Below the pieces are notes generated by a model. The model was given only the letters and a program-made list of their open reading frames with translations. It did no database searches and was not told the origin of the DNA. A stretch of DNA of 64,000 nucleotides, taken from assembly GCF_036507355.1 (NCBI RefSeq), contig NZ_AP027877.1. One strand, 5' to 3'. The translations under genes and the position numbers were made by a program. Below are positions 62 through 61,849 of this stretch, piece by piece. This DNA is from Escherichia coli. Lineage in GTDB: Bacteria > Pseudomonadota > Gammaproteobacteria > Enterobacterales > Enterobacteriaceae. Numbering within the stretch: position 1 is the first letter of the stretch; every line of letters begins with the position of its first letter.

Positions 62-874
62 CTAGACACTTCCGAGCCGTTGATAATACTGGTTTTCATA
101 TTCTGTCGGTGACATCTGATCGCTGGAACCATGCCGACGCTTACTGTTATAAAACATTTCGATGTAATCAAAAATATCGCTGCGGGCTTCTTCCCGCGTT
201 CCGTAGATCTTTTTCTTTATCCGTTCGCGTTTCAACAACTGGAAAAAGCTTTCTGCAACCGCATTATCATGGCAGTTACCGCGACGGCTCATGCTGCCAT
301 CCAGGCCGTGTGATTTCAGGAACGACTGCCACTCATGGCTTGTGTACTGACTGCCCTGATCCGAATGAACCAGCACCTGTTTTTGGGGATTACGGCGCCA
401 TACAGCCATCAGCAGTGCGTTCAGGACAATGTCCTTTGTCATCCGGGATTGCATGGACCAGCCGATAATTTTGCGTGAGAACAGATCAACAACCACGGCA
501 AGATACAGCCAGCCTTCGTGGGTCCTGATGTAGGTTATGTCCGTTACCCAACGCTTATCCGGAGCATCCGGATTGAACTGTCGCTGGAGCCTGTTGGGCG
601 ACACGATACTGGCCTCGCCTTTACGTGCCCGCGGGCTCCGGTATCCGACCTGAGCCTTTATCCCGACACGTTTCATCAGTCGCCAGACTCTGTTCACTCC
701 GCACTGTTGCCCGCTGTCCCGCAGATCCAGATGGATTTTGCGATAACCATAGACGCATCCCGATTCCAGCCAGAACTGTTTAATCTGCCCTGTCAGCCTC
801 AGGTCTGCCTGATGGCGTTGTGAATGCGGCTGCTGAAGCCAGGCGTAAAAACCACTGGGATGAACATCCAGCAC
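62..874 (-). CDS. IS3-family transposase OrfB (DDE catalytic domain)
   Basis: 270-aa ORF with IS3-type DDE region (HSDQGSQYTS ... DNAVAESFF); normally made as OrfAB by -1 frameshift. Confidence 0.85.
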   Translation of the reverse strand: MLDVHPSGFYAWLQQPHSQRHQADLRLTGQIKQFWLESGCVYGYRKIHLDLRDSGQQCGVNRVWRLMKRVGIKAQVGYRSPRARKGEASIVSPNRLQRQFNPDAPDKRWVTDITYIRTHEGWLYLAVVVDLFSRKIIGWSMQSRMTKDIVLNALLMAVWRRNPQKQVLVHSDQGSQYTSHEWQSFLKSHGLDGSMSRRGNCHDNAVAESFFQLLKRERIKKKIYGTREEARSDIFDYIEMFYNSKRRHGSSDQMSPTEYENQYYQRLGSV

Positions 875-12820: not shown

Positions 12821-13912
12821 ATGGGATTCAAATGCGGTATCGTCGGTTTGCCCAACGTCGGGAAATCTACCCTGTTCAACGCGCTGACCAAAGCCGGTAT
12901 TGAAGCGGCCAACTTTCCATTCTGCACCATTGAGCCGAACACAGGCGTCGTACCAATGCCTGACCCTCGCCTGGATCAACTGGCTGAAATCGTAAAACCG
13001 CAACGTACGCTTCCCACGACCATGGAATTTGTCGATATCGCCGGTCTGGTAAAAGGCGCATCGAAAGGCGAAGGTCTGGGTAACCAGTTCCTGACCAACA
13101 TCCGTGAAACCGAAGCGATCGGTCACGTTGTTCGCTGCTTTGAAAATGACAACATCATTCACGTTTCCGGCAAAGTTAACCCGGCTGACGATATTGAAGT
13201 TATCAACACCGAACTGGCGCTGGCAGACCTCGACACCTGCGAACGTGCGATTCATCGCGTACAGAAGAAAGCCAAAGGTGGCGATAAAGACGCGAAAGCT
13301 GAGCTGGCGGTCCTGGAAAAATGCCTGCCCCAGCTGGAAAACGCAGGTATGCTGCGCGCGCTGGATTTAAGCGCTGAAGAGAAAGCGGCTATTCGTTACC
13401 TGAGCTTCCTGACGCTGAAACCAACAATGTACATCGCCAACGTCAACGAAGACGGTTTTGAAAACAACCCATATCTTGACCAGGTGCGTGAAATCGCGGC
13501 GAAAGAAGGTTCTGTTGTGGTTCCGGTTTGTGCTGCTGTTGAAGCAGACATTGCCGAACTGGACGACGAAGAACGTGACGAGTTTATGCAGGAGCTTGGG
13601 CTGGAAGAGCCGGGCCTGAACCGTGTGATCCGTGCCGGTTATAAGCTGCTGAACCTGCAAACTTACTTCACCGCTGGGGTGAAAGAAGTGCGTGCATGGA
13701 CCATTCCGGTTGGAGCAACCGCGCCGCAGGCAGCGGGCAAAATCCATACTGATTTTGAAAAAGGCTTTATCCGTGCACAAACCATCTCGTTTGAAGATTT
13801 CATCACTTACAAAGGTGAACAAGGCGCGAAAGAAGCAGGCAAAATGCGTGCAGAAGGTAAAGATTACATCGTGAAAGATGGCGATGTGATGAACTTCCTT
13901 TTCAACGTCTAA
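12821..13912 (+). CDS. ychF: Ribosome-binding ATPase YchF (Obg-family)
   Basis: 363-aa ORF with P-loop GLPNVGKST; recognised as YchF. Confidence 0.95.
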
Positions 13913-13923
13913 ATAAAATTTGA

Positions 13924-14004
13924 TGTCTCATGAGGTTTCACTGAATCTCAGAACAACGGTAAAACTCTATAAAATCCACGCAATTGCGTGGATTTTTCAT
14001 TTCA
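13924..14004. repeat. Left copy of 81-bp imperfect direct repeat bounding the island (putative attL)
   Basis: 70 of 81 positions match 61769-61849; the last 37 bp are identical and include the palindrome AAAATCCACGCAATTGCGTGGATTTT. Confidence 0.8.
13971..13998 (+). terminator. Putative ychF rho-independent terminator (inside the repeat)
   Basis: Perfect palindrome followed by a T5 run, 60 bp after the ychF stop. Confidence 0.6.
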
Positions 14005-14041
14005 TGATGTCTCAAATCATCCCGTAAGAGCGCTGTCAAAA

Positions 14042-14095
14042 ATGAGTACATGAATGAGTACAACATTCTTCCATCTTCATTTTAAGTGAGTACAA
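14042..14095 (+). promoter_or_regulatory. Three (A/G)TGAGTACA repeats upstream of the integrase; candidate arm-type binding sites
   Basis: ATGAGTACA at 14042 and 14054, GTGAGTACA at 14087; similar pair ATGAGTATA / ATGAGTACA at 61669-61689. Confidence 0.4.
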
Positions 14096-14126
14096 TAACG
14101 GTATAATAAATAAACAAGGCCCCGTT

Positions 14127-15320
14127 ATGCTCACTGATACACAATGCCGCACTGCCAAACCGAAAGAAAAACTCTATCGACTCAATGATTTCAACGGTCT
14201 CTACCTCGAAGTGAAACCCAATGGTAAAAAGGCTTGGCGTTATCGGTTTAAGCTCAACGGTAAATCCAGCATGTTTGCGCTAGGTGAGTACCCGACGGTC
14301 AAGCTTGCCGAGGCTCGAGAAAAATGCGAGCAAGCGCGAAAGCAGGTTGCGGAAGGAGTCAACCCAGCGCAAGCTCGTCAGTTAGATAAGATTCGTAAGG
14401 TTAACGACGCATCCAACACCTTTGAGCTGATCGCCAAAGAGTGGCTGCAGATGAAAGACTGGGCCGAAATTACCAAAACACGCCGACTGGATATGCTTGA
14501 ACGTGTGGTTTTCCCCTCAATCGGTAAGCTTCCAGTCAGAGAGATCACCCCACACCATATCCTTAAAATTCTTCAGGAAACTGCCAAACGAGGAGCACCG
14601 ACAGTTGCCGCAGAAGCCCGTCGCACCATTTCATCAGTTTTCGAGTTGGCTGTGGCAACGCTTAGAGCTGATAGCGATCCTGTCTGGCCTGTACGCAAGG
14701 CACTTCCGGCGAATAAGACACAGCACAAACAGGCATTGAATCCACAGCAAATCGGGAAGCTATTAAGCTGTTTTGATAACAGTCGCGGCTCATATCAGGT
14801 TAACTATTGCATGTGGCTAATGTGGTGGACGCTGGCGCGACCAGCCGAAGTCACCGAGGCAGAGTGGGCAGAGTTCGATCTTGGTAACGCACTGTGGACC
14901 ATTCCGGCAAGGCGTATGAAAGCTCGTAGGGAACATGTTATTCCCCTTCCTTCCCAAGCCGTCAACATGCTCAAAACACTACAAGGATTAACCGGGCATA
15001 GGCAGCATCTTTTTCCGGGCAGGGATAATCCGCTAGGCCCAATGACATCGCACTCTCTGCGTCAACTACTTAAAAGCCTCGGATGGAATGGCACTTATAG
15101 CCCCCATGCTACCAGAACTACAGGAAGTACGCGTTTAAACGAAATGGGCTATCGACCTGATGCTATTGAGGCCCAACTTGCGCACGCTGATACCAACAAT
15201 GTTCGTCGCACATACAACCATGCAACTTATCTTGATGAGCGAAAGGTTATGATGCAAGACTGGGCAGATAAACTTGAAGGATGGGTAGGAAGCACACACA
15301 GCAATATTGATGTTTCGTAA
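14127..15320 (+). CDS. int: P4-type tyrosine integrase (island left end)
   Basis: 397-aa ORF with phage-integrase boxes (catalytic R in ARPAEV, H-x-x-R in PHATRTT, Tyr in RTYNHATY). Confidence 0.9.
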   Translation: MLTDTQCRTAKPKEKLYRLNDFNGLYLEVKPNGKKAWRYRFKLNGKSSMFALGEYPTVKLAEAREKCEQARKQVAEGVNPAQARQLDKIRKVNDASNTFELIAKEWLQMKDWAEITKTRRLDMLERVVFPSIGKLPVREITPHHILKILQETAKRGAPTVAAEARRTISSVFELAVATLRADSDPVWPVRKALPANKTQHKQALNPQQIGKLLSCFDNSRGSYQVNYCMWLMWWTLARPAEVTEAEWAEFDLGNALWTIPARRMKARREHVIPLPSQAVNMLKTLQGLTGHRQHLFPGRDNPLGPMTSHSLRQLLKSLGWNGTYSPHATRTTGSTRLNEMGYRPDAIEAQLAHADTNNVRRTYNHATYLDERKVMMQDWADKLEGWVGSTHSNIDVS

Positions 15321-19504: not shown

Positions 19505-22500
19505 TTAAATATCTTCTGGTGATTCCCCCAGATACATCTTACGGTAATGATACACTTCAAAGAATTTCCCCTTGTCTTTGTAACTACTGATAAAGTAGCA
19601 ATGTGTTAAATACTTTAGCAGGATCTCATTACCTTCAGTTTTGTGAACTTTTGCTCGTTTGGTTTTATCCGCAATCAAATTATATTCTTCCGACACGAAG
19701 GCCATAAGCGCACGATTGATGTATTCAAAAGGCAGTTCTTCACACTCTAAAAGATGATTCAAAAACACAAGTCGAGTGTCATCTTCCGAAACATTAAGAA
19801 GGAGTGCTATACTGACTTTACTATTTAGGCTTATATGGTCGAAGAAACTATTGGTATAGTGCGGCCAGAGAACATTGATGATTGAAACTTTAGTCGTCAA
19901 CTCTATATCGTCATCATTGAGCACAAGCTCAATAAGTTCATTATCGAAATCTTCGTCATCTTGCAGATAAAACTCAATATTATTTTCAAAAACAGCAAGG
20001 TTGTTTCTAATCATAAGCGACAGACACTCATTGAGGCCCTTGCGACGTTGTCCCTCATAAATGCTGAGTACGTCTTCATAGAGCGCTTCTGACAGCAAAA
20101 CTCTGTTGCTCTCACAAAGTGCTTTAAATTTTGTCAGTGGCAGGTCACTGATTACCTTGTCGATACTTACAGGCAGCACGCTGATCAACTGTGCATATAA
20201 CGCGTCTGGCTTATCCGCTGCTGAAATGATGTGATTCACAACATTATCAATAGACTCCTCAGGAACACTGACCTTATGGCCTGAAAGCACCTCTGGATGG
20301 TGAGCAAAAAACGCCCACAATATCTCATCGTCGACATCGGTATACATGTAGTTAAATATGTTATCCCAGTTGGCAGCGACACGCCCATGTTTAAACAAGA
20401 GGTCATAAACAGTGAATGACGCACCCTCAACTACCGATAGCCTGATATTTTCAACTGTCGACAACTGCTGAACTTCAAAATCCATGTTTTCAATTATAAT
20501 TTCTTTGGAACGCTCAGTAGCGTCTGAATTAATTAGTGAAATAACGGATCCAACGCTTTCCTCAGAATGAATGAAATATTCCACAATAAACATCTCAAGG
20601 TTTGTATTTACAGCCTCAATTAAGCATGGGACTTTTTCACTCATAATTAAGGTATATGGATTGCGCGATAGTTCCTCAACATTCTTTCTGTTATTAGAGT
20701 ACGCATTAAACAGTGCAGTGAGGTTATTAATATTAAATACATACAGAAAATTCTCTGCGATAAACTTCACCAACGTACGTTCACTTTCATCGTTAGCTTC
20801 ATTGACGCTATCGAATACAATATTGAGCTCTTTTAATTTTATGCTGAATGACGCAATCTCATCGGGTCGTATGTATGTAAACAACGTAGTGTCTGTTTTT
20901 AATTCATGCAGATAATCCTGAACAGCACTTTGTCGGGTAATGTTTTCTATCAGACCAAAACGAAGTAATGACACAAATAACTGCTGATAAAAATCATCAT
21001 CAGAGTCAATGTCACGGTAAGTACTCATCGCCGCCATCAATTTACCCAATGTCTTTTCATCGCTTAAAATTAAATTAATTAAGTCATGATAGTCATCATT
21101 ACTAAATTCATAAAAATACGTCCGCATAGTGCGAATGATTAAGCCATGTGAGCAATAATTAAATAAATGAATAAAAACATCACGGGCAAAACCAGCTCGG
21201 CAGTTGATCAAAAAGCTAATTATATGCGGATGAAAAATCCCCTCGTAATATTTAAATGATAGCGACTCCATTTTATCTACAACATTGGAAACGTTATTCA
21301 GATGAATATCTTTTAACTCCTCAAAATTCACCTTAGCAGCGACCTTCTGGATATAAACATTATCTGATTTACTTAATGCACCTGCATGGAAGATAGAGCG
21401 ATATTGCATGTAATCCTGCTCAATATATCCATTTGACAACATGAAAAACAACAATTCCATATTGAAATTAATCGCTGAAGGCTTGGATGCATTTTTATTT
21501 CCCTTATCGTCAGTTGATGCAACATTAAGCAACCACTCACTCAATTTCGCTAAGGTTATTTTTTCACATAATTCATGAAGTGATAGGCCATTTCGTTGAT
21601 TAAGAACACGCTGTGTGTTTAAAATATTTTTAGATAATTGCTCAACGGTTTTTTGGTTCTTATCTAAAATAACTGGTGAGCGTTTGTTATATTCACGTAA
21701 ACTCTCAGCTCGCTTATTATGTGGAATTTGGAAGGTATCTTGATATTCATACCCGTTTCTTGAATATGTGATAGCTATTCCGGATGGAAGCTCTCTGTTC
21801 AGAAAATCACAAAACAATGATTCATCCCCACAAAGTTCAACAAAGCTCCAGCTACTCCCAACTTGCCCATACTTATTATGGCTTATATAAAACACTGTAT
21901 TCGATTCAATTTGTTCAGGAAGATAACGCCTTAGAATTTCAACCCTCAGATTTAAACTGGATGTTTGCAATTCCTTTTGTACTTTCACCAACTTTTCTTT
22001 CTGCTGAGAAATCTTTATTTCCAAATCTTTAAAATACACGTCATGTAGCGTTCTCTTAGAGTAAGCATTAACTATTCTGTATAAAAAACCATCCTGATTA
22101 TCAAGCAGAGTGAAATCTTTGGTACATAAATTTTTATACATTATCAAAGAAAATAACTTCACATCAGAAATCTCACCCGTAATTAATTTTTTAAAAATAT
22201 TAAATTCATTTATAACATTATTCATCACCCGCATATCAGTCAGGTAAAGGGATACTTTCTTGAAAAACTGCTCTTTATCTACCGAATTAAAGTTTATAAC
22301 TTTACTACTTAATATGTCATACGCATTCTCACTATCTACTGCAGGTATAATCGGCACAATAAAATCAAAAAATTTTGTTTGTGATTCAGCATCCTTTAAT
22401 AAATCCTCCCTGACTGCAAAAATAAATTTAATCGGTTTCTTTTCCAATAGTCTGGAATTGTTTATCACTTGATTTATTTCACGGAGCTTAATAAAAATAT

Positions 22501-23407
22501 GACCATTGTTTAAACGGTCTAAATCTTCAAATACGACAACTCTATACTTTGTTTTAAGGAAGAAGTAAACAATCTCATCAATATACAAATTTAGCAGAGA
22601 AGCTGTATTCTGTTTTTCCGCCGCAATTTCTGCCTTTAAGAGATTTACTTTATCAAGAGCAATTTTTCTGTCAAAAAATCCTATCCGATAAAAACGAGAC
22701 AGCAGATACCAACAAATGATAAATGATAGCGAACCGATACATCCCCAACGCCATACCGGATGTATCGCAATGAAATGACTCACCGCTGACGGTAATGAAA
22801 ACGTGTTGATAATTTTTTGAGGAAACAACAATGTAGTGACAACGATTGTCAGTATGAGAACAAAAAACAGCAAACAGGATGTTATTAGTATTTGCCCAAC
22901 ACTTCGGGTGTGAATGCGCTCTACCCGCGAATCTGGCAGCGTACCTTTATCCACTTTGTATAAAATCTGCTGTAATATGCTGTATTCAATGCTTTGTTCT
23001 TTTGATAAAGACTCGGAACTTTTTAGTGTCTCATCCGTTTCAAAGTTTGCCAGTGAGATAATCACGTGCTCATCCGCTGGTTTTAAACTTGTAAACCTGA
23101 GCCAATATTTCAGGCGGTGCCACAACCGCTTTCGCCCTTCAATTTTTTTAAGGTATGAGAGAATAACCGAGCTTTTACCCGCGCCATAGGACCCCGTGAT
23201 GGCGATGTTCTTCACATCATCCCGGCTGAGGGCATAATCCAACGCCTTAAAATAGGGTTGATATCCCTCTTTATCAGGATCGACAATCGGTGTTAGCGTT
23301 TGGAATTCCCTTTCCGTTCCTGAATTGTTTTCTGAAGTAACCTGAAGCCTTGCGACTGTTTTATGCAACCAGTCTGCGATCGTTTTCAACCCGAAAGACA
23401 GCGCCAT
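19505..23407 (-). CDS. KAP-family P-loop NTPase with large C-terminal extension (1300 aa)
   Basis: Walker A GSYGAGKSS, two hydrophobic helices inserted before Walker B VVVFEDLDRL (KAP hallmark), then about 900 aa with no recognisable motif; gene visibly AT-rich. Confidence 0.75.
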   Translation of the reverse strand: MALSFGLKTIADWLHKTVARLQVTSENNSGTEREFQTLTPIVDPDKEGYQPYFKALDYALSRDDVKNIAITGSYGAGKSSVILSYLKKIEGRKRLWHRLKYWLRFTSLKPADEHVIISLANFETDETLKSSESLSKEQSIEYSILQQILYKVDKGTLPDSRVERIHTRSVGQILITSCLLFFVLILTIVVTTLLFPQKIINTFSLPSAVSHFIAIHPVWRWGCIGSLSFIICWYLLSRFYRIGFFDRKIALDKVNLLKAEIAAEKQNTASLLNLYIDEIVYFFLKTKYRVVVFEDLDRLNNGHIFIKLREINQVINNSRLLEKKPIKFIFAVREDLLKDAESQTKFFDFIVPIIPAVDSENAYDILSSKVINFNSVDKEQFFKKVSLYLTDMRVMNNVINEFNIFKKLITGEISDVKLFSLIMYKNLCTKDFTLLDNQDGFLYRIVNAYSKRTLHDVYFKDLEIKISQQKEKLVKVQKELQTSSLNLRVEILRRYLPEQIESNTVFYISHNKYGQVGSSWSFVELCGDESLFCDFLNRELPSGIAITYSRNGYEYQDTFQIPHNKRAESLREYNKRSPVILDKNQKTVEQLSKNILNTQRVLNQRNGLSLHELCEKITLAKLSEWLLNVASTDDKGNKNASKPSAINFNMELLFFMLSNGYIEQDYMQYRSIFHAGALSKSDNVYIQKVAAKVNFEELKDIHLNNVSNVVDKMESLSFKYYEGIFHPHIISFLINCRAGFARDVFIHLFNYCSHGLIIRTMRTYFYEFSNDDYHDLINLILSDEKTLGKLMAAMSTYRDIDSDDDFYQQLFVSLLRFGLIENITRQSAVQDYLHELKTDTTLFTYIRPDEIASFSIKLKELNIVFDSVNEANDESERTLVKFIAENFLYVFNINNLTALFNAYSNNRKNVEELSRNPYTLIMSEKVPCLIEAVNTNLEMFIVEYFIHSEESVGSVISLINSDATERSKEIIIENMDFEVQQLSTVENIRLSVVEGASFTVYDLLFKHGRVAANWDNIFNYMYTDVDDEILWAFFAHHPEVLSGHKVSVPEESIDNVVNHIISAADKPDALYAQLISVLPVSIDKVISDLPLTKFKALCESNRVLLSEALYEDVLSIYEGQRRKGLNECLSLMIRNNLAVFENNIEFYLQDDEDFDNELIELVLNDDDIELTTKVSIINVLWPHYTNSFFDHISLNSKVSIALLLNVSEDDTRLVFLNHLLECEELPFEYINRALMAFVSEEYNLIADKTKRAKVHKTEGNEILLKYLTHCYFISSYKDKGKFFEVYHYRKMYLGESPEDI

Positions 23408-24639: not shown

Positions 24640-24834
24640 TCAGCAACCTCCTCTGGTCCCACGGGAAGCAATCCACTCATTGACTTCACTTTCCAGCCAG
24701 GCCACCGCTCGTCCTCCTGTCAGGGATTTTTGGCGTGGGAAAGTCCCTTTTTCAATCATCCGGTACAGTGTGGCGCGGCTCACCGCACAGCGTTCCAGCA
24801 CAGCCTGAATTTTGACCAGTTTCATATCATTCAT
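24640..24834 (-). CDS. alpA: AlpA-family phage transcriptional regulator / excisionase-like protein
   Basis: 64-aa ORF with AlpA-type HTH (RCAVSRATLYRMIEKGTFP). Confidence 0.85.
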   Translation of the reverse strand: MNDMKLVKIQAVLERCAVSRATLYRMIEKGTFPRQKSLTGGRAVAWLESEVNEWIASRGTRGGC

Positions 24835-25760: not shown

Positions 25761-26708
25761 TTACCAGCAACATAGCGCCCTGGAGGCTCTGTCTACAGCC
25801 TGCCTGCCCCTACAGTCATAGCGTGTGGTCGTGGATATATCCGCATGTCCTGCCAACTGGCGCACCACATTAATGTCCACTCCCTGCTCCAGCAGGCGGG
25901 TGATGAATGTCCGTCGCAGGTCGTGGGGGGTGAAGTAATCCACTTCTGCAGCTTCGCGTAACTGCGCCAACAGCCCTGTAAGACCCGTGGTGGTAAGCCG
26001 TTGTCGTCCTGGCTGCCCCGCACGACTGATGCGACTGAACAGCGGCCCGGCATGATACCCCCGGAGCTTCAGCCATCGCCGCAGTTGCATGCAGACTTTT
26101 CCGGAAAGGTGGATTTCCCGGATTTTGCGCCCCTTTCCCTGCCTGACAATCACGATCCCCGTGGCTACATCTATATCTCCCACGTCCAGGGCTACCAGTT
26201 CGGCGGCACGCAGACCTGCGCCACACAGAAGCAGCAAAATAGCCCGATTACGCTGGCAACGTACAGCGTCAGCCTTTCCGGCCGCCGCCAGCATGGCCCG
26301 AATTTCGGTCCTGTCCAACGCCCTGCCCAAGCGGGTGGCACTGCCAGTGACACGCCTGACTGAACGTATGCGCGTCAGTCTGTCAGCATCCAGAATCCCC
26401 ATACTGAAAGCCGCTCCGGCAACCGATTTCAGCGCCGACAGCGCCATGTTCACCGTGGCAACAGCATAGCCCTCATCCAGCAGCACCGAGCGTACCCGCA
26501 TCACGCTCGTGTAGTCCAACGTATGCCAGGGGTAGGTGTCGGGCTTCGCCCCCGGACGGAGGATACCGGCACATCGTCGGAGTAAGCTTTGCATCCCCCT
26601 GCGCCCGGCTGGCGTCAGGCTTGCCAGCCACAGCAATGCTGGGTTGATGGAGAGGGCATTTTGCGGGTGGACAGATGCCGCGCGTTTACCATTGCGGCTC
26701 GTGGTCAT
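25761..26708 (-). CDS. Tyrosine-type site-specific recombinase (XerC/XerD-like, about 315 aa)
   Basis: Catalytic-box residues (R in LRAAEL, HDLRRTF, ISTTTRY); visibly GC-rich relative to neighbours. Confidence 0.8.
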   Translation of the reverse strand: MTTSRNGKRAASVHPQNALSINPALLWLASLTPAGRRGMQSLLRRCAGILRPGAKPDTYPWHTLDYTSVMRVRSVLLDEGYAVATVNMALSALKSVAGAAFSMGILDADRLTRIRSVRRVTGSATRLGRALDRTEIRAMLAAAGKADAVRCQRNRAILLLLCGAGLRAAELVALDVGDIDVATGIVIVRQGKGRKIREIHLSGKVCMQLRRWLKLRGYHAGPLFSRISRAGQPGRQRLTTTGLTGLLAQLREAAEVDYFTPHDLRRTFITRLLEQGVDINVVRQLAGHADISTTTRYDCRGRQAVDRASRALCCW

Positions 26709-35069: not shown

Positions 35070-38000
35070 CTATACCGTCCAGCTGTTCGACACCACTTCA
35101 GCCTGCTTCAGTATCAGTTCAACTGCATAAGGTGTTTTATCTGGCGGATACTTGTACTTACGCAGCGTCTGACGCACCAGAATACGTAACCGCGCACGCA
35201 CGCTTTCTCGCACCTGCCAGTCTACGGTTGTGGACTGGCGCAATTTTAACGTGACTTCGATAGCCAGTTTCTTAAGGACGTCATCACCCAGCTCCCGTAC
35301 CGCACTTTCGTTTTCTGCCAGCGCATCGTAGAACGCGATTTCGTCCGGGTTTAGCCCCAGCGCTTCATCACGCGCCATCGCTTCCTGAAACTCTTTTGCC
35401 ATCTGGATCAGTTCTTCAATCACCTGCGCAGTTTCAATGGCGCGGTTATTGTATTTGAGAAGCACGGCTTTCAGGCGATCTGAGTATTTCTTCTCCTGCA
35501 CCACGTTGTTTTTGGTGCGGGCATGAATGCCGTCGTTCAGCAGTTTCTCCAGCAACTCGACTGCCAGATTACGCTGCGGCAATTCGCGCACTTCTTCCAG
35601 AAACTCGTCTGACAACAATCCAATATTCGGCTTATCCAGACCCGCCAGCGCAAACACATCATCCACGCCCGTCGCAATAATGGCGTTATCGAGGATTTTA
35701 CCGAGTAGCGTATTTTTCTCTGACTGACTGAATTTTTTGTCGGTTGTCGTCAGCTTGATAATCGCCACTTTCACCGCCGACAAAAACGCGATCTCTTTTT
35801 GCAAGGGTTTAGCTTCATCTAACGTACTGCACAGCGACCAGGCTTTGTTCATCGCCAGCACGACATCGAAAAAGCGCTTCTTACCGTCATCAAGGCCCAG
35901 CACATAATCTGCGGCTTTGAGTAAAAACCGTTGGGGCACCTCTGCAAAACCGGTGTAATCAAACCCGGCGGCGGTTGGTGTTTTGGCAAACATTCCATGA
36001 ATCACATCCAGCTTTTCAAGCAGGATGGAGAACGCTTCATGAGCATCGACTGTCGTCTGTCCTTTACCTTTTGAATCGGTATAAGTTTTCAGCGCCTGTT
36101 TCAGTTCATTGGCGATACCGATGTAATCCACCACTAAACCGCCCGGTTTATCTTTGAAGACGCGGTTGACGCGCGCAATGGCCTGCATCAGATTATGCCC
36201 GCGCATCGGTTTGTCGATATACATGGTATGACAACATGGCGCATCAAACCCGGTAAGCCACATATCGCGCACAATCACCAGTTTCAACGGGTCGTTGAGA
36301 TCTTTAAAGCGCGCTTCAAGGCGTTTTTTGGTTTGCTTATTGTAGATGTGCGGCTGAAGGAATTTATTATCGGAGGCTGAGCCGGTCATGATGATTTTGA
36401 TTTCACCTTTCTCGACGTCATCACTGTGCCATTCCGGGCGTAGAGCCACCAGCGCATCATACAGCTTCACGCAGATCTCACGGCTCATGGCAACAATCAT
36501 TGCTTTGCCATTCATTGTGGCGTTACGTGCCTCAAAATGCTGAACCAGATCGGCGGCCACCTCATTGATACGAGGTTCAGAACCAACCAGTTTTTCCAGA
36601 CGGCTCCAGTCACTTTTGGTTTTCTCTTTCTGATCGGTCTCTTCATCTTCGACCAGCTCATCCACCTGATTAGACAGCGTTTCCAGCTCTTCGTGGTTGA
36701 GGTCGAGTTTTGCCAGGCGCGATTCATAGTAGATAGGCACGGTTGCGCCATCTTCCACCGCATCCTGTATATCGTAGATAGAGACGTAATCACCAAACAC
36801 CGCGCGGGTGTCTTTATCTTCGGAAGAAACCGGTGTTCCGGTAAAGCCCATAAACGACGCATTGGGTAACGCATCGCGCATATGTTTGGCGTAACCGTAT
36901 TTATAAGCGCCAGTCTCCCGGTTCAGCGTGGCGCTAAGACCATACTGGCTGCGGTGCGCTTCATCGGAAATGACGACGATATTGCTGCGCAGGTTTAGCG
37001 CCGGGTGAGTCTGTTCGCCATCAAGCGGGGCAAATTTTTGTACGGTGGTAAAAATAATCCCGCCTGATTCACGGACATTGAGCATCTCGCGGAGCTGGTC
37101 GCGATCGTTTGCCTGTAACGGTTCCTGCTTAAGCAAATCCTGTGCCTGGCAGAAGGTGGCATACAGTTGGCCGTCGAGATCGTTACGGTCGGTCACCACC
37201 ACGATGGTCGGGTTGTTCATTTCCGCTTGTTGTAGCAGTTTTCCGGCGTAACAACACATCGAGATACTCTTACCGGAACCCTGCGTATGCCACACCACAC
37301 CGGCTTTTTTACTGCCTGGCGTGATGTTGCTGCGCAGCGGCAAGTGTTTACCGGTAGAGGCCACAATCGTCGCCGTCACCGCTTCACGTACTGCGTGGAA
37401 TTGGTGGTAAGCGGCAATCTTTTTAATCAGTCGTTTGCCGTCGCTTTCAAACAGGATGAAGTAACGAATGTAGTCGAGCAGCAGTTCGCGGTTAAAGAAC
37501 CCTTTTACTACCGTTTCAAGCTGCCATTCAAACAGCGGTTTGTCGTCTTCATTAGACAGCGTTTTCCACGGCAAGAAGCGCTCTTCGTTCGCGGTGAGAG
37601 AGCCAATACGGGCGTTGTAGCCATCGCTGACCACCAGCGCTTCGTTGCAGATGAACAGATCGCTGAGTTCGTTTTTATAGGTCTGCAACTGATTAAATGC
37701 CGCCCAGATATCGGCATTAGCATCAATCGGGCTTTTCAGCTCAATCACTACTACTGGCAATCCGTTGATATAGCAGATAACGTCCGGGCGACGTACCTGC
37801 TTCGTTCCCTGGATGGCCACCTGATTCACCACCGTAAAGTGGTTATTATTTGGGTGGTTAAAATCCATCAGTAGCGCTTTGTCGTGGATAACTTTGTCAT
37901 CCTGCTTGTACTGCACCGGCACGCCGTCGAGCAGCAGGTGATGGAAGGCTTTGTTACTGACGACCAGATCCGGGCTTTGCGCATGGGCGATACGCAGTAT

Positions 38001-38204
38001 CACCTCATCCAGCACGGCAACCGGGAGATGTGGGTTAATCTTTTGCAACTGCTCCAGTAGCACCGGGCGCAAAAACACATCGTGGAACGACGCACGCAGC
38101 GGATTGTTGCCATCTGGCGCAATATCCGGCCCGTGCAATACTTCCCAGCCCAGTTCAGCAAACCATTGCAGGCTTTGCTGTTCTAAATCGTCTTCGCTCA
38201 GCAT
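35070..38204 (-). CDS. hsdR: Type I restriction enzyme R subunit (HsdR)
   Basis: 1044-aa ORF with helicase motifs (Walker [13 protein letters not shown] box [10 protein letters not shown]). Confidence 0.9.
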
Positions 38205-39391
38205 CAGGTTTCCTCTGTCTCGGTTTCTTCCATTTCTTCGGGCACGTTTGAAATCTCTTTGAGCGCCATATTCAGTGGGGCAATAAAGGGATCTAACGCT
38301 TTTTCAAATGCCGTCAGGTTTACCAGTAGCCAGTCGATCATTTCAGGCCAGTTGGCTTCATCAAGGCTGATGGCCGGGCTGGCATAGGAAATTCGACACG
38401 ATTTTTTACCCGGCAGAGGTTCCCACTTAAGCGCATGGCCAAACGCGTTTTCAATTGCCTCTTTGCGTTCATGTAGCCAGTTAAAAGCAAAGGTATTGCT
38501 CTCTGCGGAAGCTTTGGCAATCCACAGCTCAACCCGAATCTCTTTTTTACTGAAAATCAGGTTATACGACACCGCGCTAATACCAGAGCCCGCACTGATC
38601 CAGTGATCGGTAGAGGGGCTGATATTGTTATATAAGTGGCAGGAGCTGGCTTTGAGGCGCTCCAGCATCTTTGTCCAGAAAGCTTTACGCATTAATTGGA
38701 CTGGCTTTACTCCGCCGCTGACGGATTGTTCTTCCGCCTCTTTTTGCGCCATACCGATCATGTAAGATTCTGCTTCCGGTGTGGGGATAACCTGACGGAT
38801 ATCAACGAATACATCGTCGTTGAACTTATAGGGTTTAACCTTAAAGCACTGTACCCGCAGACCAAATTGCATGAGCCACAGGGCAGTGTTGGTCACCTCT
38901 TTGCGAAAGTTGGCTGCGACCATGATGATTCGCTGTGTACGGCTCTGGTTGATTAAGGCTTCATCCAGCGTTTCATATTCGAGGAATTCAGCAAGCACCT
39001 CTGCCGCCGGGCGATTTTCCTCTGGGTCGTATTTATCCAGATAAAGCTGGAAGATCTGCAGAATTTGCTCTTTACGCAGGTTGGCGCAATACCCGGCATA
39101 TTTGAGCGCTTGCCAGACGACGTCGCGACCTGAATCATCGAGCTTATTCTCGATGATCACCAGATTGCCTTTTTTATCGATAGCCAGCAGGTCAAGGCGC
39201 TCTTTGGTGTCGTCAAAACCGGCGAACTCTTTCTGTATAATCAGTAGTTCATCGTCATTATCGCGAGTTAACGCTTGGGGATTCTGCGCCAGCCATTCCT
39301 GCAGATTGCCACGTTCGGTAAAACCAAGACTACTGAAAGAGACTTCCTGTAGGGAGTGTAAGCTGTTAGTCGGCGTATCAACTTTATACAT
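38204..39391 (-). CDS. PD-(D/E)xK nuclease-like protein embedded between hsdS and hsdR
   Basis: N-terminal D...ExK-like motif ([18 protein letters not shown]); ATG at 39391 overlaps the hsdS stop, and its stop overlaps the hsdR start. Confidence 0.6.
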
Positions 39392-40769
39392 TTTCCACCT
39401 CACTGACTGCCTGTTCTGCTTCCTGCAGGGTAATTTCACCCGAGAGAAGTTTGGGGAGAAGGGTGTCGCGGAGTTGGGTTAGTGATTCAGTTTGTACACT
39501 GAGCGATTTAATCTCATTAAATAAATGTGTACATTTGGCATGAAATAACTCCAATACTTTAGCATCAGGCTGAGCGATTTTAATTCCTGAGAAAGTAGAC
39601 GTATTGACATTTAAAGTTGCACTACCTGCGCTACCTAAAATGTGAAGATGATCTTTCAATCCCAACATACAAAAATAAAGATAATAGAGTAAGGAACTCT
39701 TATGAGGTGTAACAGAATTTATTTGCTGATTGGTATGAGATGGTTCATTGGTGATAGAAACAACACCAATAGTAGCTATACAACTAACACAGATAGAATT
39801 TGCGGGTACAAGTTTTTTTAGTTGCGACTTTGAACCGGCTTCGCTTAAATATTCATTAGTTTTAAGCACAAAAAGTTGCCCATGCATATCTGGTATCTTT
39901 ATGAATGGAACATCACTACCGTAATACTCTGGTTCTTTTTTTGACGGAGTTTTGCCACAAGTAACCTTCCCCATCTCACTAATTGACGCCACCCCCCATC
40001 CTTTAGGAATCGCCCCTAACTCACTGTCCTGCATCGCTGCCGGAAACAGTTCTGCCGTGGCTTTTAACTCGGCATATTGCTCAGGGTGTTCACGCTCAAA
40101 AACCGCCAGCGCATCCGCATCTTTCCCAGAAATGGCGGTCATGGCGGCAAGTGTTGCGTCTGCCTGCGAACCGCCCGCATCCAGTACTGCCATTTTGGCT
40201 TTTACGGGGTCAAAATCAACAAACCAACTTTTGAACAGGGCTTGTGCCATTTGTTCGAGGGTTTGGTTGATGCGATTATTACTATCAATTTTTTTACTTA
40301 ACGTAAAAATTAGCTTTGTACATCTTTTTTGATATTTTAAAGAAGGAATCTTTATTTTGTAGCTCAGCATGGCCCCTTTATCACCTCGAGGCATTTTTGC
40401 GCCCTTGGATGTAAGATGGCTATAATTAATAAAATCATCACTGCTTAAAATCAAATGTAAATATTCACTTGTGAGTTTTTCATGTGTAGTCCTAAATACT
40501 AGCACATCAGGAGAAACACCTCCGTAAAATGTGGCAAACCATACTTTTTTAAAGTACGTTCGAATATTAGAAAATAAAGTATCACCTATTTCAAAAGAAT
40601 TAAATTTGTTGACATCAGGGATGCCTGATGAAATAGTTACACCCTGACGGTCAGGCAACATATTTTCCGTGGAAATATAATTAGTAACATCTATAATAGA
40701 TGCATCACATTTTTTTGTGACTATCTCTACAAAGTTACCTAACTCAGTTTCGATGAACTCAAAACTCAT
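39384..40769 (-). CDS. hsdS: Type I restriction-modification specificity subunit (HsdS)
   Basis: Two target-recognition-domain architecture, AT-rich; start at 40769 overlapping the hsdM 3' end. Confidence 0.88.
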   Translation of the reverse strand: MSFEFIETELGNFVEIVTKKCDASIIDVTNYISTENMLPDRQGVTISSGIPDVNKFNSFEIGDTLFSNIRTYFKKVWFATFYGGVSPDVLVFRTTHEKLTSEYLHLILSSDDFINYSHLTSKGAKMPRGDKGAMLSYKIKIPSLKYQKRCTKLIFTLSKKIDSNNRINQTLEQMAQALFKSWFVDFDPVKAKMAVLDAGGSQADATLAAMTAISGKDADALAVFEREHPEQYAELKATAELFPAAMQDSELGAIPKGWGVASISEMGKVTCGKTPSKKEPEYYGSDVPFIKIPDMHGQLFVLKTNEYLSEAGSKSQLKKLVPANSICVSCIATIGVVSITNEPSHTNQQINSVTPHKSSLLYYLYFCMLGLKDHLHILGSAGSATLNVNTSTFSGIKIAQPDAKVLELFHAKCTHLFNEIKSLSVQTESLTQLRDTLLPKLLSGEITLQEAEQAVSEVENV

Positions 40770-42468
40770 AACCCAGCCCCCCCAGATTCGCCTTAATCTG
40801 CGCTTCCAACTTCGCGCTCTCTTCAAGCTGATCTTTAAGCTGCGCCGTCAGGCGCGCCATCTTCTCGGCAAACGGTTCATCATCTTCAGCTTGCTCGGCG
40901 GCACCAACGTAGCGCCCAGGGGTCAGCACAAAGTCGTTTTTCTGGATATCCTCCAGCGTTGCTGAGAAGCAGAATCCGGCTTCGTCTTCGTAGTCTTTAT
41001 CCGTCTGCCAGGCGTGGAAGGTATCGGCAATTCTGGCGATATCTTCGCGGGTAAAGTCGCGCAACACGCGATCTTTCATATAACCAATCTGGCGCGCGTC
41101 GATAAACAGCACTTCACCTTTACGGTGCGCTTTGCCGTTGCCACCGGATTTATCTTTGGTCAGGAACCAGATACAGGCTGGGATTTGGGTGTTGGTAAAC
41201 AGTTGCCCTGGCAGCGCCACCATACATTCCACCAGATCCGCTTCAATCAGGTTGCGGCGGATCTCGCCTTCATTGTTAGTGTTGGAACTCATCGAACCGT
41301 TCGCCAGCAGCAGCGCCATCGAACCTTTTGGCGCGAGGTGGTGGATCATGTGCTGCATCCACGCAAAGTTGGCGTTGCCCTGCGGCGGTGTGCCGTATTT
41401 CCAGCGCACGTCGTTTTCCAGCTTCGCGTTCCACCACTCCTTCATGTTGAACGGCGGGTTTGCCATCACGAAGTCAGCGCGCAGATCCGGGTGCTGGTCG
41501 TCTAGCAGGGTGTCGGCGTTTTTGGCACCAAAGTTAAAGTCGATACCGCGGATCGCCATGTTCATCGCCGCCAGCTTCCAGGTGGTCGGATTCGACTCCT
41601 GGCCGTAAACGGAAATATTGCGCTTCTGCTCAGCGGCGTTGTAATTCTTTTCGCCCGCGTGCTCTTCAATGAAACGGTCGCTGGAAACGAAGAACCCGCC
41701 GGAACCCATTGCCGGGTCATACACCCGCCCGTTGTACGGTTGCAGCATTTCGACAATCAGGGTCACGATGCTTTTTGGCGTGTAGTACTGACCTCCCTGT
41801 TTACCTTCCGCCAGCGCGAATTGCCCCAGGAAATATTCGTAAACGTGGCCGAGAATATCTTTGCTCTTTAAGCTGAGTTTCTCGCCGTTATATTCCGGGT
41901 TGCTGAAGTTTGCGTCAGAGAAGGTATTAATCAGCCCGGTCAGCACCTCGTTACTCAGTTGATACTGGCTGATGCGATTCAGAATACCTTTCAGTTTCGG
42001 GTTGGTTTTTTCGATTTCATCCAGCGCGTTATCCACCAGCCAGGAGACAGAGCGCAGCGTCACATCCTTGCCGGTGGTTTCATCCACCCACAGCACGGTG
42101 CCGGTCGGCAACATGGCTTTGTTTTTCAGCGTGTCCCAGCGCGCGGCTTTTGGCACCCAGAAGATGTTCTTTTCGGTGTAGTAATCTTCAACTTCCAGCT
42201 CTTCCTGGATAGCCTGAGCGTATTCTTCGTCGGAACCGTAATCATCGCGCGACATGGCGTAGATGTTGTCGGGATTACCGACATCGCGGAACAGGGTCGT
42301 CAGCTCCTGCTGACGCGCCTCGAAGGCATCAGAAACATACTTCAGGAAGATTAGCCCCAGCACCACATGCTTGTAGTTGGCGGCATCCATATTGGCGCGC
42401 AGTTTGTCGGCGGCCTTCCAGAATTTGTTATCCAGCTCGTTCAGAAATAGCTGTTCAGCGTTGTTCAT
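40759..42468 (-). CDS. hsdM: Type I restriction-modification DNA methyltransferase (HsdM)
   Basis: N6-adenine methyltransferase motif NPPF (VMANPPFNMKEW); start at ATG 42468 with GAGGA ribosome-binding site. Confidence 0.92.
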   Translation of the reverse strand: MNNAEQLFLNELDNKFWKAADKLRANMDAANYKHVVLGLIFLKYVSDAFEARQQELTTLFRDVGNPDNIYAMSRDDYGSDEEYAQAIQEELEVEDYYTEKNIFWVPKAARWDTLKNKAMLPTGTVLWVDETTGKDVTLRSVSWLVDNALDEIEKTNPKLKGILNRISQYQLSNEVLTGLINTFSDANFSNPEYNGEKLSLKSKDILGHVYEYFLGQFALAEGKQGGQYYTPKSIVTLIVEMLQPYNGRVYDPAMGSGGFFVSSDRFIEEHAGEKNYNAAEQKRNISVYGQESNPTTWKLAAMNMAIRGIDFNFGAKNADTLLDDQHPDLRADFVMANPPFNMKEWWNAKLENDVRWKYGTPPQGNANFAWMQHMIHHLAPKGSMALLLANGSMSSNTNNEGEIRRNLIEADLVECMVALPGQLFTNTQIPACIWFLTKDKSGGNGKAHRKGEVLFIDARQIGYMKDRVLRDFTREDIARIADTFHAWQTDKDYEDEAGFCFSATLEDIQKNDFVLTPGRYVGAAEQAEDDEPFAEKMARLTAQLKDQLEESAKLEAQIKANLGGLGYEF

Positions 42469-43724: not shown

Positions 43725-43775
43725 ACCGCCCCGGGAATCCTGGAGACTAAACTTCCTGAGAAAGAGGTAAACAGG

Positions 43776-44989: not shown

Positions 44990-45153
44990 GTTCACAGATA
45001 AAACACTCTCCAGGAAACCCGGGGCGGTTCACACTATTATTTCTCCGGTTAGCCTACAACAACGTTTTTATCAGAAGCTCAACCAGCAGATAATAGAAAT
45101 GAAAAACCCATTGCAGTGAAATTATTTTTGACAACATACAGCAGGAGTAAAAA

Positions 45154-61655: not shown

Positions 61656-61768
61656 AGCCAGTTCGAAAATGAGTATAACTATGAGTACATAAAAAACAAA
61701 TAATTAATAAAAATATATTAATCAATATGATATCACATAAGTTACGGTTCAACGTCTAATTAATTTAT

Positions 61769-61849
61769 TGTCTCATGAGGTTTCGCTAAATCTCATGAAG
61801 AGCGCAAAAGTATATAAAATCCACGCAATTGCGTGGATTTTTCATTTCA
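61769..61849. repeat. Right copy of 81-bp imperfect direct repeat bounding the island (putative attR)
   Basis: Matches 13924-14004, with the last 37 bp identical including the palindrome. Confidence 0.8.

What the first reader, a model, noticed from the sequence alone, without database searches (positions are those of the whole stretch)
14042..14095. ATGAGTACA-type repeats flank both island ends on the same strand (second set at 61669-61689)
Three (A/G)TGAGTACA repeats lie between the left att repeat and the first integrase; two related copies (ATGAGTATA, ATGAGTACA) lie between the tRNA fragment and the right att repeat. Both sets are on the plus strand. They resemble integrase arm-type binding sites and imply that both island ends retain recombination architecture.
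Basis: seen in the sequence. Interest (0 to 1): 0.35.

Follow-up and report, generated by a model that had tools for sequence, protein, structure and literature searches.

The report
Integrase arm sites at island ends
The short repeats at both ends of this E. coli defence island are almost certainly the docking sites that the island's own integrase uses to cut itself in and out beside the ychF gene, which is an ordinary design but belongs to a widespread integrase family for which I found no earlier description.

Summary
RTGAGTAYA occurs on the + strand at 14042, 14054 and 14086, and at 61669 and 61681. The window has 7 matches against 1.2 expected. Both tandem pairs have a 12-bp pitch.

int1 (14127-15320) has a P4/IntS-type arm-binding domain. 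In 80 related loci from about 60 genera, int1 homologs always sit after ychF and carry three repeats at fixed offsets. The repeated word changes with the integrase clade (TGAGTAY, GTGNNTAY, CSGGGTAY), and so does a strand of the arm-binding domain.

In nine independent two-ended elements, a pair of the element's own word lies 79-80 and 67-68 bp before the core. In 1.6 Mb of fetched DNA such pairs occur only at these two positions. Sites decay where int is broken (p = 6e-5). Phage HK620, whose arm sites are mapped experimentally, has the same layout.

- The crossover lies in the last ychF codons (AACGTCT), not in the 100-bp repeat.
- That repeat is an element-borne copy of the ychF terminator region.
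- The tRNA-Thr fragment and int2 belong to a separate thrW island.

Binding itself is untested. This is a new member of a known kind and is of moderate interest.

The parts
12821..13912 (+). ychF, the target gene. Its last four codons plus stop form the recombination core.
   Evidence: Pfam YchF-GTPase_C and MMR_HSR1; RefSeq annotation in identical E. coli records.
13901..13912 (+). Left core block TTCAACGTCTAA (attL). The inferred 7-bp strand-exchange region AACGTCT is 13904-13910.
   Evidence: Empty sites run from ychF straight into the right copy. attL matches begin exactly here. Natural mismatches in L076 (TTT..TAA / TTC..TAG) and L073 (..TAA / ..TGA) bracket AACGTCT. In EcPF18 the repeat is only this block.
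13913..14004 (+). Element-borne imitation of the native ychF 3' UTR and terminator hairpin (hairpin 13974-13993). It forms the proximal part of the P' arm.
   Evidence: It differs from K-12-type empty sites, whereas the right copy is identical to them (alignment A3). It is conserved in Enterobacterales elements.
14042..14050 (+). P'1 arm-type site ATGAGTACA (+141 from core start, -85 from the int1 ATG).
   Evidence: positional conservation.
14054..14062 (+). P'2 arm-type site ATGAGTACA (+153; 12-bp pitch with P'1).
14086..14094 (+). P'3 arm-type site GTGAGTACA (+185, -41 from the ATG), 7 bp upstream of a TATAAT hexamer at 14102-14107.
   Evidence: The promoter role is only inferred; the promoter scan was negative.
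14127..15320 (+). int1, a 397-aa tyrosine integrase with an N-terminal arm-binding domain. It is the protein proposed to bind the sites.
   Evidence: PF13356, PF22022 and PF00589; PDB 3JU0/3JTZ at E about 1e-18 over residues 2-90; 2287 homologs; always found after ychF.
61669..61677 (+). P1 arm-type site ATGAGTATA (-79 from the right core start).
   Evidence: Same offset in nine independent elements.
61681..61689 (+). P2 arm-type site ATGAGTACA (-67; 12-bp pitch with P1).
   Evidence: Same as P1.
61720..61732 (+). AATCAATATGATA, a conserved TCAATnnnATA block in the otherwise free AT-rich spacer. It is a candidate IHF or other bending-protein site.
   Evidence: Invariant TCAAT...ATA in five Enterobacterales right arms and TTCAATCAGATA in EcPF18. 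The match to the IHF consensus WATCAANNNNTTR is 8 of 9 by my own count. IHF binding is inferred, not tested.
61748..61759 (+). Right core block TTCAACGTCTAA (attR); exchange region 61751-61757.
61760..61849 (+). Native ychF 3' UTR and terminator, displaced to the right end. It is host DNA, not part of the element.
   Evidence: Identical to the J53 and ERL05 empty sites.

Best explanation
The five RTGAGTAYA repeats are the arm-type binding sites of int1, a heterobivalent tyrosine integrase of the P4/IntS (PF13356) class that inserts its element into the last codons of ychF.

In the excised circle the two ends would join to form an attP of about 275 bp. On the far arm, P1 and P2 start 79 and 67 bp before the core. 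The core is TTCAACGTCTAA, with strand exchange inside AACGTCT. On the int-side arm, P'1, P'2 and P'3 lie at +141, +153 and +185, and the int1 ATG is at +226.

In this model the N-terminal domain of Int holds the arm words while its C-terminal domains hold the core. The DNA is bent in between, probably at the conserved TCAATnnnATA block, so that an intasome can form for integration (attP x attB) and excision (attL x attR).

After integration, three sites stay next to int1 in attL and two end up 48 kb away in attR. This is what the window shows, so both ends are still competent substrates.

Because P'3 lies just upstream of the int1 start and a TATAAT hexamer, Int bound there probably also represses its own gene, as in KplE1, P4 and PAI I536.

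Shown: the sites, their geometry, their conservation, their co-variation with the integrase and the position of the crossover. Inferred: physical binding by Int, bending by IHF, autoregulation and present-day mobility.
For: 1. Enrichment: 7 matches against 1.2 expected, and both pairs have a 12-bp pitch.

2. Protein: int1 carries PF13356 and matches the solved arm-binding domains 3JU0 and 3JTZ at E about 1e-18.

3. Left-arm conservation: all 80 genome loci with int1 homologs (56-96% aa identity) that have enough upstream sequence place int 195-224 bp after the ychF stop. They carry three words in a 12-bp plus about 32-bp layout at about -85/-73/-41. In 28 distinct Enterobacterales arms (mean pairwise identity 0.75) the site columns hold 1.90 bits, the TGAGTA columns 1.98 and the spacer columns 1.32.

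4. Co-variation: the word changes by integrase clade. It is RTGAGTACA in Enterobacterales, YTGAGTACG/RTGAGTATA in the Thauera/Comamonas/Pseudomonas group, GTG(A/C)(A/C)TAC and GTGTATAY in the PA7/Bordetella/Cupriavidus groups, and CCGGGTAY or GCGGGTAY in the most distant clades. The third predicted beta-strand of the arm-binding domain changes in step: SSMF/ASMF..GEYP, then GSWF/ASWF..GDYP, then KES(V/T/M)FA(I/V)G.

5. Right-arm conservation: nine independent elements have a pair of their own word at -79/-80 and -67/-68 from the core. These are the window (ET729 and ET826 carry the same right end), EcPF18-type E. coli, Phytobacter L015, L073, Pantoea L076, Providencia L075, and three elements from other word classes: L065 (ATGTATATG/GTGACTACA), L077 (CCGGGTATA/GCGGGTATG) and L083 (GCGGGTACA/GCGGGCACA).

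6. Specificity: across 1.60 Mb, 48 of 56 pairs are upstream of int, 8 are right arms and none is elsewhere.

7. Coupling to int: 35 of 37 loci with an intact int keep three sites, against 3 of 10 with a broken int (Fisher p = 6e-5).

8. Shared protein: Int is the only protein common to all elements. L065 is int plus an XRE-type HTH protein, and L015 has no AlpA-type gene.

9. Characterised relative: HK620, an IntS-family phage whose integrase is 36% identical to int1, has a 12-bp-pitch pair starting 80 bp before its annotated core, and further words running up to the int ATG and overlapping an annotated promoter.

10. Autoregulation precedents: KplE1 (PMC2951348), and P4 and PAI I536 (PMC7286903).
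Against: - No binding, footprint or recombination data exist for this integrase.
- No excised circle or tandem junction was found in 5,426 E. coli genomes or 72,556 plasmids. The only attP-like junction is the Providencia tandem array, L075.
- The sigma-70 scan calls no promoter upstream of int1, because the -35 is poor, so autoregulation is weakly based.
- The co-variation rests on three or four clades, so the number of independent events is small. The site-decay test cannot separate loss of Int from general ageing of an element.
- The IHF-like block is my own consensus count, and it is not evident in the GC-rich clades.
Confidence: 0.85

Rival explanations
1. The repeats bind an accessory protein, such as a recombination directionality factor (AlpA/Xis/TorI-like) or a small HTH regulator, rather than the integrase.
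For: RDF sites are also short direct repeats near att cores and int promoters, as with the TorI sites in KplE1. The window encodes an AlpA-family protein at 24640-24834, and the minimal element L065 encodes an XRE-type HTH protein.
Against: No accessory gene is shared by all elements; L015 has neither type, and the window's AlpA gene sits with a different recombinase module. The word co-varies with residues of the integrase arm-binding domain. The sites lie on both arms at the same positions as the annotated attP arm repeats of HK620, where IntS arm binding is established for the KplE1/HK620 family.
Confidence: 0.06
2. The repeats are operators of the int1 promoter only and have no role in synapsis. 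The right-end pair would be a duplicated or relic copy.
For: P'3 lies 7 bp upstream of a TATAAT hexamer (14102-14107) and all three left sites are within 85 bp of the start codon. Autorepression is documented for related integrases.
Against: The right-end pair keeps a fixed distance (-79/-67) to the core in nine elements, including clades where both the word and the spacer sequence have changed completely. That fits a geometric role in the recombination complex and does not fit a relic. No promoter was called. The two roles are not exclusive, and the best explanation already includes regulation.
Confidence: 0.04
3. The right-end pair serves int2, the thrW-type integrase next to the tRNA-Thr fragment, and not int1.
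For: The pair starts 13 bp from the end of the tRNA-Thr fragment that is int2's attachment remnant, and int2 also has a PF13356 domain.
Against: int2 has its own, different words in front of it: TGGGGGCATA and GGGGGCATT at a 12-bp pitch, plus an inverted ATGCCCCC. The Pantoea int2-like gene uses GTGTATA. The pair is present without any int2 in L015, L073 and EcPF18, and without any tRNA fragment in Providencia L075. The pair's word always equals the int1 P' word.
Confidence: 0.03
4. The repeats are a chance occurrence of an AT-rich 9-mer in AT-rich intergenic DNA.
For: Two further isolated copies occur in the window (57692, 59869), and the flanks are AT-rich.
Against: No shuffle out of 100 reached 7 matches. 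Pairs at a 12-bp pitch occur only at the two arm positions in 1.6 Mb. Positions are conserved across about 60 genera.
Confidence: 0.01

Closest known systems
KplE1 / HK620 IntS recombination module (E. coli cryptic prophage KplE1 = CPS-53, and phage HK620)
   Same: - The integrase is a full-length homolog, 36% identical, with the same domain set.
- int reads away from the core, and attL overlaps the int upstream region.
- The far arm has a direct pair at a 12-bp pitch starting 80 bp before the core, and the near arm has words running up to the int start.
- IntS arm-type sites are established experimentally and IntS represses its own promoter (PMC2951348).
   Different: - The word differs: GGGTAAAA against TGAGTACA.
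- Some HK620 P' words are inverted, while all five here are direct.
- The target is the argW tRNA gene rather than the 3' end of a protein gene.
- The near arm here is about 50 bp longer and carries a copy of the host terminator.
- KplE1 has a dedicated RDF (TorI), while none is conserved here.
- The element here is an island, not a phage.
Phage P4 integrase and P4-like (CP4-like) island integrases: HPI, HAI7, PAI I-VI of E. coli 536
   Same: The N-terminal arm-binding fold is the same (3JTZ, 3JU0) and so is the Pfam architecture. The element carries a copy of the 3' end of its target so that the gene is restored. Int represses its own promoter, and an IHF site is present in the int upstream region (PMC7286903).
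   Different: Those integrases target tRNA genes. I could not retrieve their arm-site sequences (the paper PMC2797237 is not held), so the words could not be compared. int1 is at most 41% identical to any phage integrase in the collection.
Phage lambda attP (P1, P2 / P'1-P'3 arm-type sites)
   Same: There are five arm sites split 2 + 3 around a 7-bp overlap, with the three-site arm next to int. The integrase is heterobivalent and an accessory bending site lies between arm and core. The lambda layout is recalled from general knowledge of lambda, with the domain logic as summarised in PMC2951348 and PMC8138268.
   Different: The arm-binding domain family is different. The arm lengths are reversed: here the int-side arm is the long one, about 195 bp against about 80 bp. 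The target is a gene end conserved across Proteobacteria rather than one intergenic site.

Membership tests
Heterobivalent tyrosine-integrase attP with arm-type sites | The integrase has a separate N-terminal arm-binding domain. | tested here: met
   PF13356 at residues 2-85, E = 1e-26. PDB 3JU0/3JTZ arm-type binding domains, E about 1e-18.
Heterobivalent tyrosine-integrase attP with arm-type sites | Repeated words, different from the core sequence, lie on both sides of the crossover within about 200 bp. | tested here: met
   P1/P2 at -79/-67 and P'1-3 at +141/+153/+185 relative to the core TTCAACGTCTAA. The crossover is mapped.
Heterobivalent tyrosine-integrase attP with arm-type sites | The sites are conserved in position among related elements and are specific to the cognate integrase. 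| tested here: met
   Fixed offsets in 80 loci and nine two-ended elements. The word co-varies with the integrase clade and with the arm-binding-domain strand.
Heterobivalent tyrosine-integrase attP with arm-type sites | The Int N-domain binds the words physically, and the words are required for recombination. | not testable with these tools
   This needs EMSA or footprinting, and in vivo assays with mutated sites.
Heterobivalent tyrosine-integrase attP with arm-type sites | A site for an accessory DNA-bending protein (IHF) lies between an arm and the core. | tested here: inconclusive
   A conserved TCAATnnnATA block lies 16-28 bp before the core in six Enterobacterales right arms. It matches the IHF consensus at 8 of 9 positions by my count. 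It is not evident in the GC-rich clades.
IntS/P4-like module in which attL overlaps the int promoter (KplE1 paradigm) | int is adjacent to attL, is transcribed away from the core, and has P' sites in its upstream region. | tested here: met
   P'1-3 lie 85-33 bp upstream of the int1 ATG, and the core lies 226 bp upstream. HK620 has the same layout.
IntS/P4-like module in which attL overlaps the int promoter (KplE1 paradigm) | The int promoter overlaps the Int sites and Int represses it. | tested here: inconclusive
   TATAAT at 14102-14107 is 7 bp after P'3, and -10-like and RBS-like blocks are conserved. The consensus scan calls no promoter. Repression cannot be tested here.
IntS/P4-like module in which attL overlaps the int promoter (KplE1 paradigm) | A cognate recombination directionality factor is encoded by the element. 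| tested here: inconclusive
   An AlpA-family ORF lies at 24640-24834 (annotated as such in ET826). It sits beside a different recombinase, and no such gene is present in the small elements L015 and L065.
IntS/P4-like module in which attL overlaps the int promoter (KplE1 paradigm) | Integration is into the 3' part of a tRNA gene (typical of the class, not strictly defining). | tested here: not met
   The target is the 3' end of the protein gene ychF in every locus with enough upstream sequence. The tRNA-Thr fragment in the window belongs to the nested thrW island.

The most novel reading that the evidence does not exclude
The int1 elements are an undescribed family of small integrative elements found across Proteobacteria. 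They all use the near-universal F-N-V-stop codons of ychF as their core.

Their arm words and arm-binding domain have co-diversified, on an invariant attP scaffold, into at least three mutually orthogonal recognition classes. That would be a natural specificity code for the PF13356 domain.

In addition, the Enterobacterales lineage carries a tRNA-Thr relic directly beside P1. This relic may act as a built-in docking site for thrW-type islands, which would explain how the 48-kb composite defence island in this window was assembled island-within-island.
Probability: 0.3. Interest if true: 0.55.

Novelty: new member of a known kind. Interest (0 to 1): 0.35.

Why it matters
By itself this is a textbook feature: the arm sites of a tyrosine integrase. 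It matters in three modest ways.

First, it shows that this 48-kb defence island (type I Zorya, type I R-M, SIR2, YobI-like ATPase) still has a complete integration and excision apparatus. The island should therefore be treated as potentially mobile rather than as a fixed part of the chromosome.

Second, the comparison defines a whole integrase family. It has more than 2,000 protein clusters, is present in about 11% of complete E. coli genomes and occurs in about 60 other genera. It targets one 7-bp sequence in the last codons of ychF, and I found no description of it in the held literature.

Third, the family keeps one rigid attP geometry while its arm words and one strand of the arm-binding domain change together. 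That gives a ready-made natural data set for working out how PF13356 domains read DNA, and for choosing orthogonal integrase and att pairs as tools.

Tried and rejected
1. Crossover in the 37-bp identical hairpin block of the 100-bp repeat. Rejected: the right copy is wholly native and the left copy differs from empty sites. In EcPF18 the two ends share only the 12-bp core.

2. The two extra copies at 57692 and 59869 as part of the system. Rejected: they are isolated singles on the opposite strand, inside a segment that is 100% identical to a thrW island in strain Z226-5. Their number fits chance.

3. int2 as the user of the right-end pair. Rejected; see the rival explanations.

4. Search for an excised circle or tandem junction, using the predicted 348-bp attP sequence. 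No place covered 80% or more of the query in E. coli genomes or plasmids.

5. Sigma-70 promoter and terminator scan of 13850-14200. Nothing was called, even though a hairpin and a TATAAT hexamer are visible by eye.

6. Literature on ychF-targeting integrases. I found only serine-recombinase pipolins in Gram-positives and a pneumococcal prophage upstream of ychF, both unrelated. The structural paper on the HPI and HAI7 arm domains is not held, so known P4-family arm words could not be compared directly. HK620 was used instead.

7. A BLAST search for a second repeat copy inside the fetched loci found only two right ends. A search for the ychF terminal block found more.

8. I considered a metagenome pattern scan for more right ends and dropped it. 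A right junction alone does not identify the integrase clade, and requiring the pair in the pattern would have been circular.

Full report
**1. What is in the sequence**

The pattern RTGAGTAYA occurs 7 times in the window on both strands, against 1.22 expected from dinucleotide-preserving shuffles, and no shuffle out of 100 reached 7. The two remaining copies (57692 and 59869, minus strand) are isolated.

**2. The setting**

The window is E. coli chromosome at the ychF-ycgV junction. ychF (12821-13912) is followed by an integrase gene, int1 (14127-15320). int1 carries the P4-type Arm-DNA-bind_3 domain PF13356, plus PF22022 and PF00589. Its residues 2-90 match the solved arm-type binding domains of the HAI7 and HPI integrases (3JU0, 3JTZ) at E about 1e-18.

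A second integrase, int2, lies at the right end. Its ORF is 60247-61482 on the minus strand, and the RefSeq start corresponds to 61443. It is 38% identical to int1 and sits beside a 49-nt 3' fragment of tRNA-Thr (61607-61655, minus strand).

The interior is a mosaic defence island: IS elements, an AlpA-family gene with a third small recombinase, CbtA/YeeU, type I R-M, type I Zorya, SIR2 and a YobI-like ATPase.

**3. Where the crossover is**

The two ends share an imperfect direct repeat of about 100 bp (13901-14004 and 61748-61849). It covers the last 12 nt of ychF and a terminator hairpin.

Empty sites in K-12-type and other E. coli run from ychF straight into the right-hand copy, which is identical to them. 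The left-hand copy differs inside the repeat. So the left copy is an imitation of the ychF 3' UTR and terminator that the element carries, and recombination must occur at the left edge, in TTCAACGTCTAA.

Three further results confirm this:
- attL matches to a synthetic attP begin exactly at that block.
- In the common E. coli variant (EcPF18 type) the two ends share only this 12-bp block.
- Two natural mismatches narrow the exchange region to the 7-bp AACGTCT. Pantoea L076 reads TTTAACGTCTAA on the left and TTCAACGTCTAG on the right. L073 reads ...TAA on the left and ...TGA on the right.

Relative to the first base of the core:

| Feature | Offset |
|---|---|
| P1 | -79 |
| P2 | -67 |
| P'1 | +141 |
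| P'2 | +153 |
| P'3 | +185 |
| int1 ATG | +226 |

**4. Comparative test, left arm**

int1 belongs to a very large family, with 2287 protein clusters at E <= 1e-30. About 627 of 5,426 complete E. coli genomes have such a gene next to ychF.

A genome-wide scan gave 80 loci from about 60 genera of gamma-, beta- and alpha-proteobacteria, at 56-96% identity. In every locus with enough upstream sequence, int lies 195-224 bp after the ychF stop.

All loci have the same layout of three words, two at a 12-bp pitch and a third about 32 bp further on, ending about 33 bp before the start codon. Within Enterobacterales there are 28 distinct arm sequences with mean pairwise identity 0.75. The nine-base site columns carry 1.90 bits, the TGAGTA core 1.98 and the intervening spacer columns 1.32.

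The word changes with the integrase clade, and one strand of the arm-binding domain changes in step:

| Clade | Word | Arm-binding strand |
|---|---|---|
| Enterobacterales | RTGAGTACA | SSMF/ASMF...GEYP |
| Thauera, Comamonas, some Pseudomonas | YTGAGTACG, GTGAGTACA, RTGAGTATA | SSMF/ASMF...GEYP |
| P. aeruginosa PA7, Bordetella, Cupriavidus groups | GTGACTACG or GTGAATACG, with GTGTATAY | GSWF/ASWF...GDYP |
| Most distant clades | CCGGGTAY or GCGGGTAY | KES(V/T/M)FA(I/V)G, with PYKL for LYRL |

This is a clade-level correlation covering three or four independent changes. It is not a statistical proof, but it is what co-evolving protein and site would produce.

**5. Comparative test, right arm**

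Right ends were found in two ways: by looking for pairs of words, and, with less bias, by looking for a second copy of each locus's ychF terminal block and then reading what precedes it. Nine independent elements have both ends available:

| Element | Right-arm pair |
|---|---|
| Window (ET729 and ET826 share this right end) | ATGAGTATA / ATGAGTACA |
| EcPF18-type E. coli | ATGAGTACG / ATGAGTACA |
| Phytobacter L015 | ATGAGTATA / ATGAGTACA |
| Enterobacteriaceae L073 | ATGAGTATA / ATGGGTACA |
| Pantoea L076 | ATGAGTACA / ATGAGTATT |
| Providencia L075 | ATGAGTACA / CTGAGTACA |
| L065 | ATGTATATG / GTGACTACA |
| L077 | CCGGGTATA / GCGGGTATG |
| L083 | GCGGGTACA / GCGGGCACA |

In all nine the pair has a 12-bp pitch, starts 79-80 bp before the core and uses that element's own left-arm word. 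The spacer between pair and core is AT-rich in Enterobacterales and GC-rich in L077 and L083, yet its length is constant.

Across 1.60 Mb of fetched DNA there are 56 pairs of the TGAGTA-type word at this pitch. Of these, 48 are upstream of int, 8 are right arms and none is elsewhere.

**6. Coupling to the integrase**

Among TGAGTA-clade loci, 35 of 37 with an intact int keep all three left sites, against 3 of 10 with a frameshifted or truncated int (Fisher p = 6e-5).

The integrase is the only protein shared by all elements. The 2-kb element L065 has only int and an XRE-type HTH gene, and the 4.7-kb element L015 has no AlpA-type gene.

int2 has different words of its own (TGGGGGCATA, GGGGGCATT and an inverted ATGCCCCC at 61445-61493). 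The int2-like gene of Pantoea uses GTGTATA. The ATGAGTAYA sites therefore belong to int1.

**7. Comparison with what is known**

No phage integrase in the collection exceeds 41% identity to int1.

The closest characterised system is the IntS module of KplE1 and HK620, at 36% identity over the full length. There, IntS arm-type sites in attL overlap the intS promoter and IntS represses itself (PMC2951348).

In the HK620 record the annotated attP repeats show the same blueprint. ATGGGTAAAATA|GCGGGTAAAATA is a 12-bp-pitch pair starting 80 bp before the annotated core, and GGGTAAAA words run up to the int ATG and overlap an annotated promoter.

P4 Int and the P4-like IntI of PAI I536 also repress their own promoters, the latter with IHF (PMC7286903).

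The ychF elements differ in four ways: their word, their target (a protein-gene end rather than a tRNA), their all-direct site orientation, and a longer int-side arm that carries a host terminator look-alike.

I found no description of a ychF-end tyrosine integrase family in the held literature. That is a statement about this library, not about all publications.

**8. Mechanism proposed**

In the circular form the two ends would make an attP of about 275 bp. Int would bridge arm words and core through its two DNA-binding parts. The DNA would be bent in the P arm, perhaps at the conserved TCAATnnnATA block (61720-61732), which matches the IHF consensus at 8 of 9 positions and is conserved in six Enterobacterales arms. 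Strand exchange would take place in AACGTCT.

Integration leaves ychF intact, because the element supplies the stop codon, 3' UTR and terminator.

P'3 lies 7 bp before a TATAAT hexamer (14102-14107), so Int probably also limits its own expression. This last point is inference only, because the promoter scan was negative.

In the window the five sites, the two cores and int1 are all intact, so the island looks competent for excision. No excised junction was found in E. coli assemblies.

**9. Verdict**

This is a new member of a known kind. It is ordinary in principle, but the comparison delimits a large and apparently undescribed integrase family with a rigid attP scaffold and co-varying arm words.

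Noticed in passing
window 61607-61655 (minus strand) and 45029-61655; L086, L015 14384-14432, L073, L076, L090: The tRNA-Thr fragment covers tRNA positions 28-76. Window 45029-61655, including int2, is 100% identical to an island at the real thrW gene next to proA in E. coli Z226-5. Yet a diverged tRNA-Thr relic with the same junction (…AATGCG|AGCC) sits beside P1 in Phytobacter, L073, Pantoea and EcPF18, mostly without any int2. The relic may serve as a docking site for thrW-type islands, giving island-in-island growth. No second tRNA copy is left in the window, so this is unproven.
   Followed up: partly
window 61445-61493: int2 has its own candidate arm sites, read on the minus strand: TGGGGGCATA and GGGGGCATT at a 12-bp pitch, plus an inverted ATGCCCCC touching its RefSeq start codon. 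The Pantoea int2-like gene has GTGTATA words in the same arrangement. The 12-bp pitch looks general for PF13356 integrases.
   Followed up: partly
window 13913-14004: The element carries a look-alike of the native ychF 3' UTR of about 90 bp, with both hairpins, including the terminator at 13974-13993. ychF therefore keeps a stop codon and a terminator after insertion. This mimicry, not the crossover, is what creates the 100-bp 'att repeat'.
   Followed up: yes
window 14000-14041; same region in L006-L085: Between the terminator copy and P'1 there are further conserved words and dyads that also change by clade: TTTCAT / GTCTCA / TCTCAT in Enterobacterales, GTTGCATGCAAC in the Cupriavidus group, and GCTGCT...AGCAGC in the Thauera group. 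These could be sites for a second protein, or core-type Int sites.
   Followed up: no
window 24640-24834 (-) and 25761-26708 (-): An AlpA-family 64-aa ORF and a third, small (315-aa) tyrosine recombinase sit together inside the island, next to a CbtA/YeeU, RadC and DUF2787 module typical of CP4-type islands. Whether this AlpA protein acts as an excision factor for int1 is unknown.
   Followed up: no
window 19505-23407, 35070-42507 and about 42800-60000: The cargo is largely anti-phage defence: a YobI-like P-loop ATPase, type I R-M, type I Zorya (annotated in ET826) and a SIR2-family protein. The related island in ET729 has the same two ends but is only about 25 kb, so the cargo turns over by IS-mediated change while the arms stay.
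   Followed up: partly
window 62-874 and 63146-63958: The same set of ORFs (270 aa on the minus strand, 119 aa and 101 aa on the plus strand) appears at both ends of the window. This suggests two copies of one IS element bracketing the whole region.
   Followed up: no
L075 9747-20300 (Providencia vermicola): A 123-bp perfect repeat that includes the P' arm, followed by a second partial int, indicates a tandem array of two ychF elements. The internal junction is the only attP-like (P arm - core - P' arm) junction seen.
   Followed up: partly
L009 (Martelella alba) and L085 (Phycisphaerales MAG): An alphaproteobacterial assembly carries an enterobacterial-type ychF (89% identical to E. coli) and int1 (94%). 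A Phycisphaerales MAG also carries a family member. These may be contaminating contigs rather than real host range.
   Followed up: no
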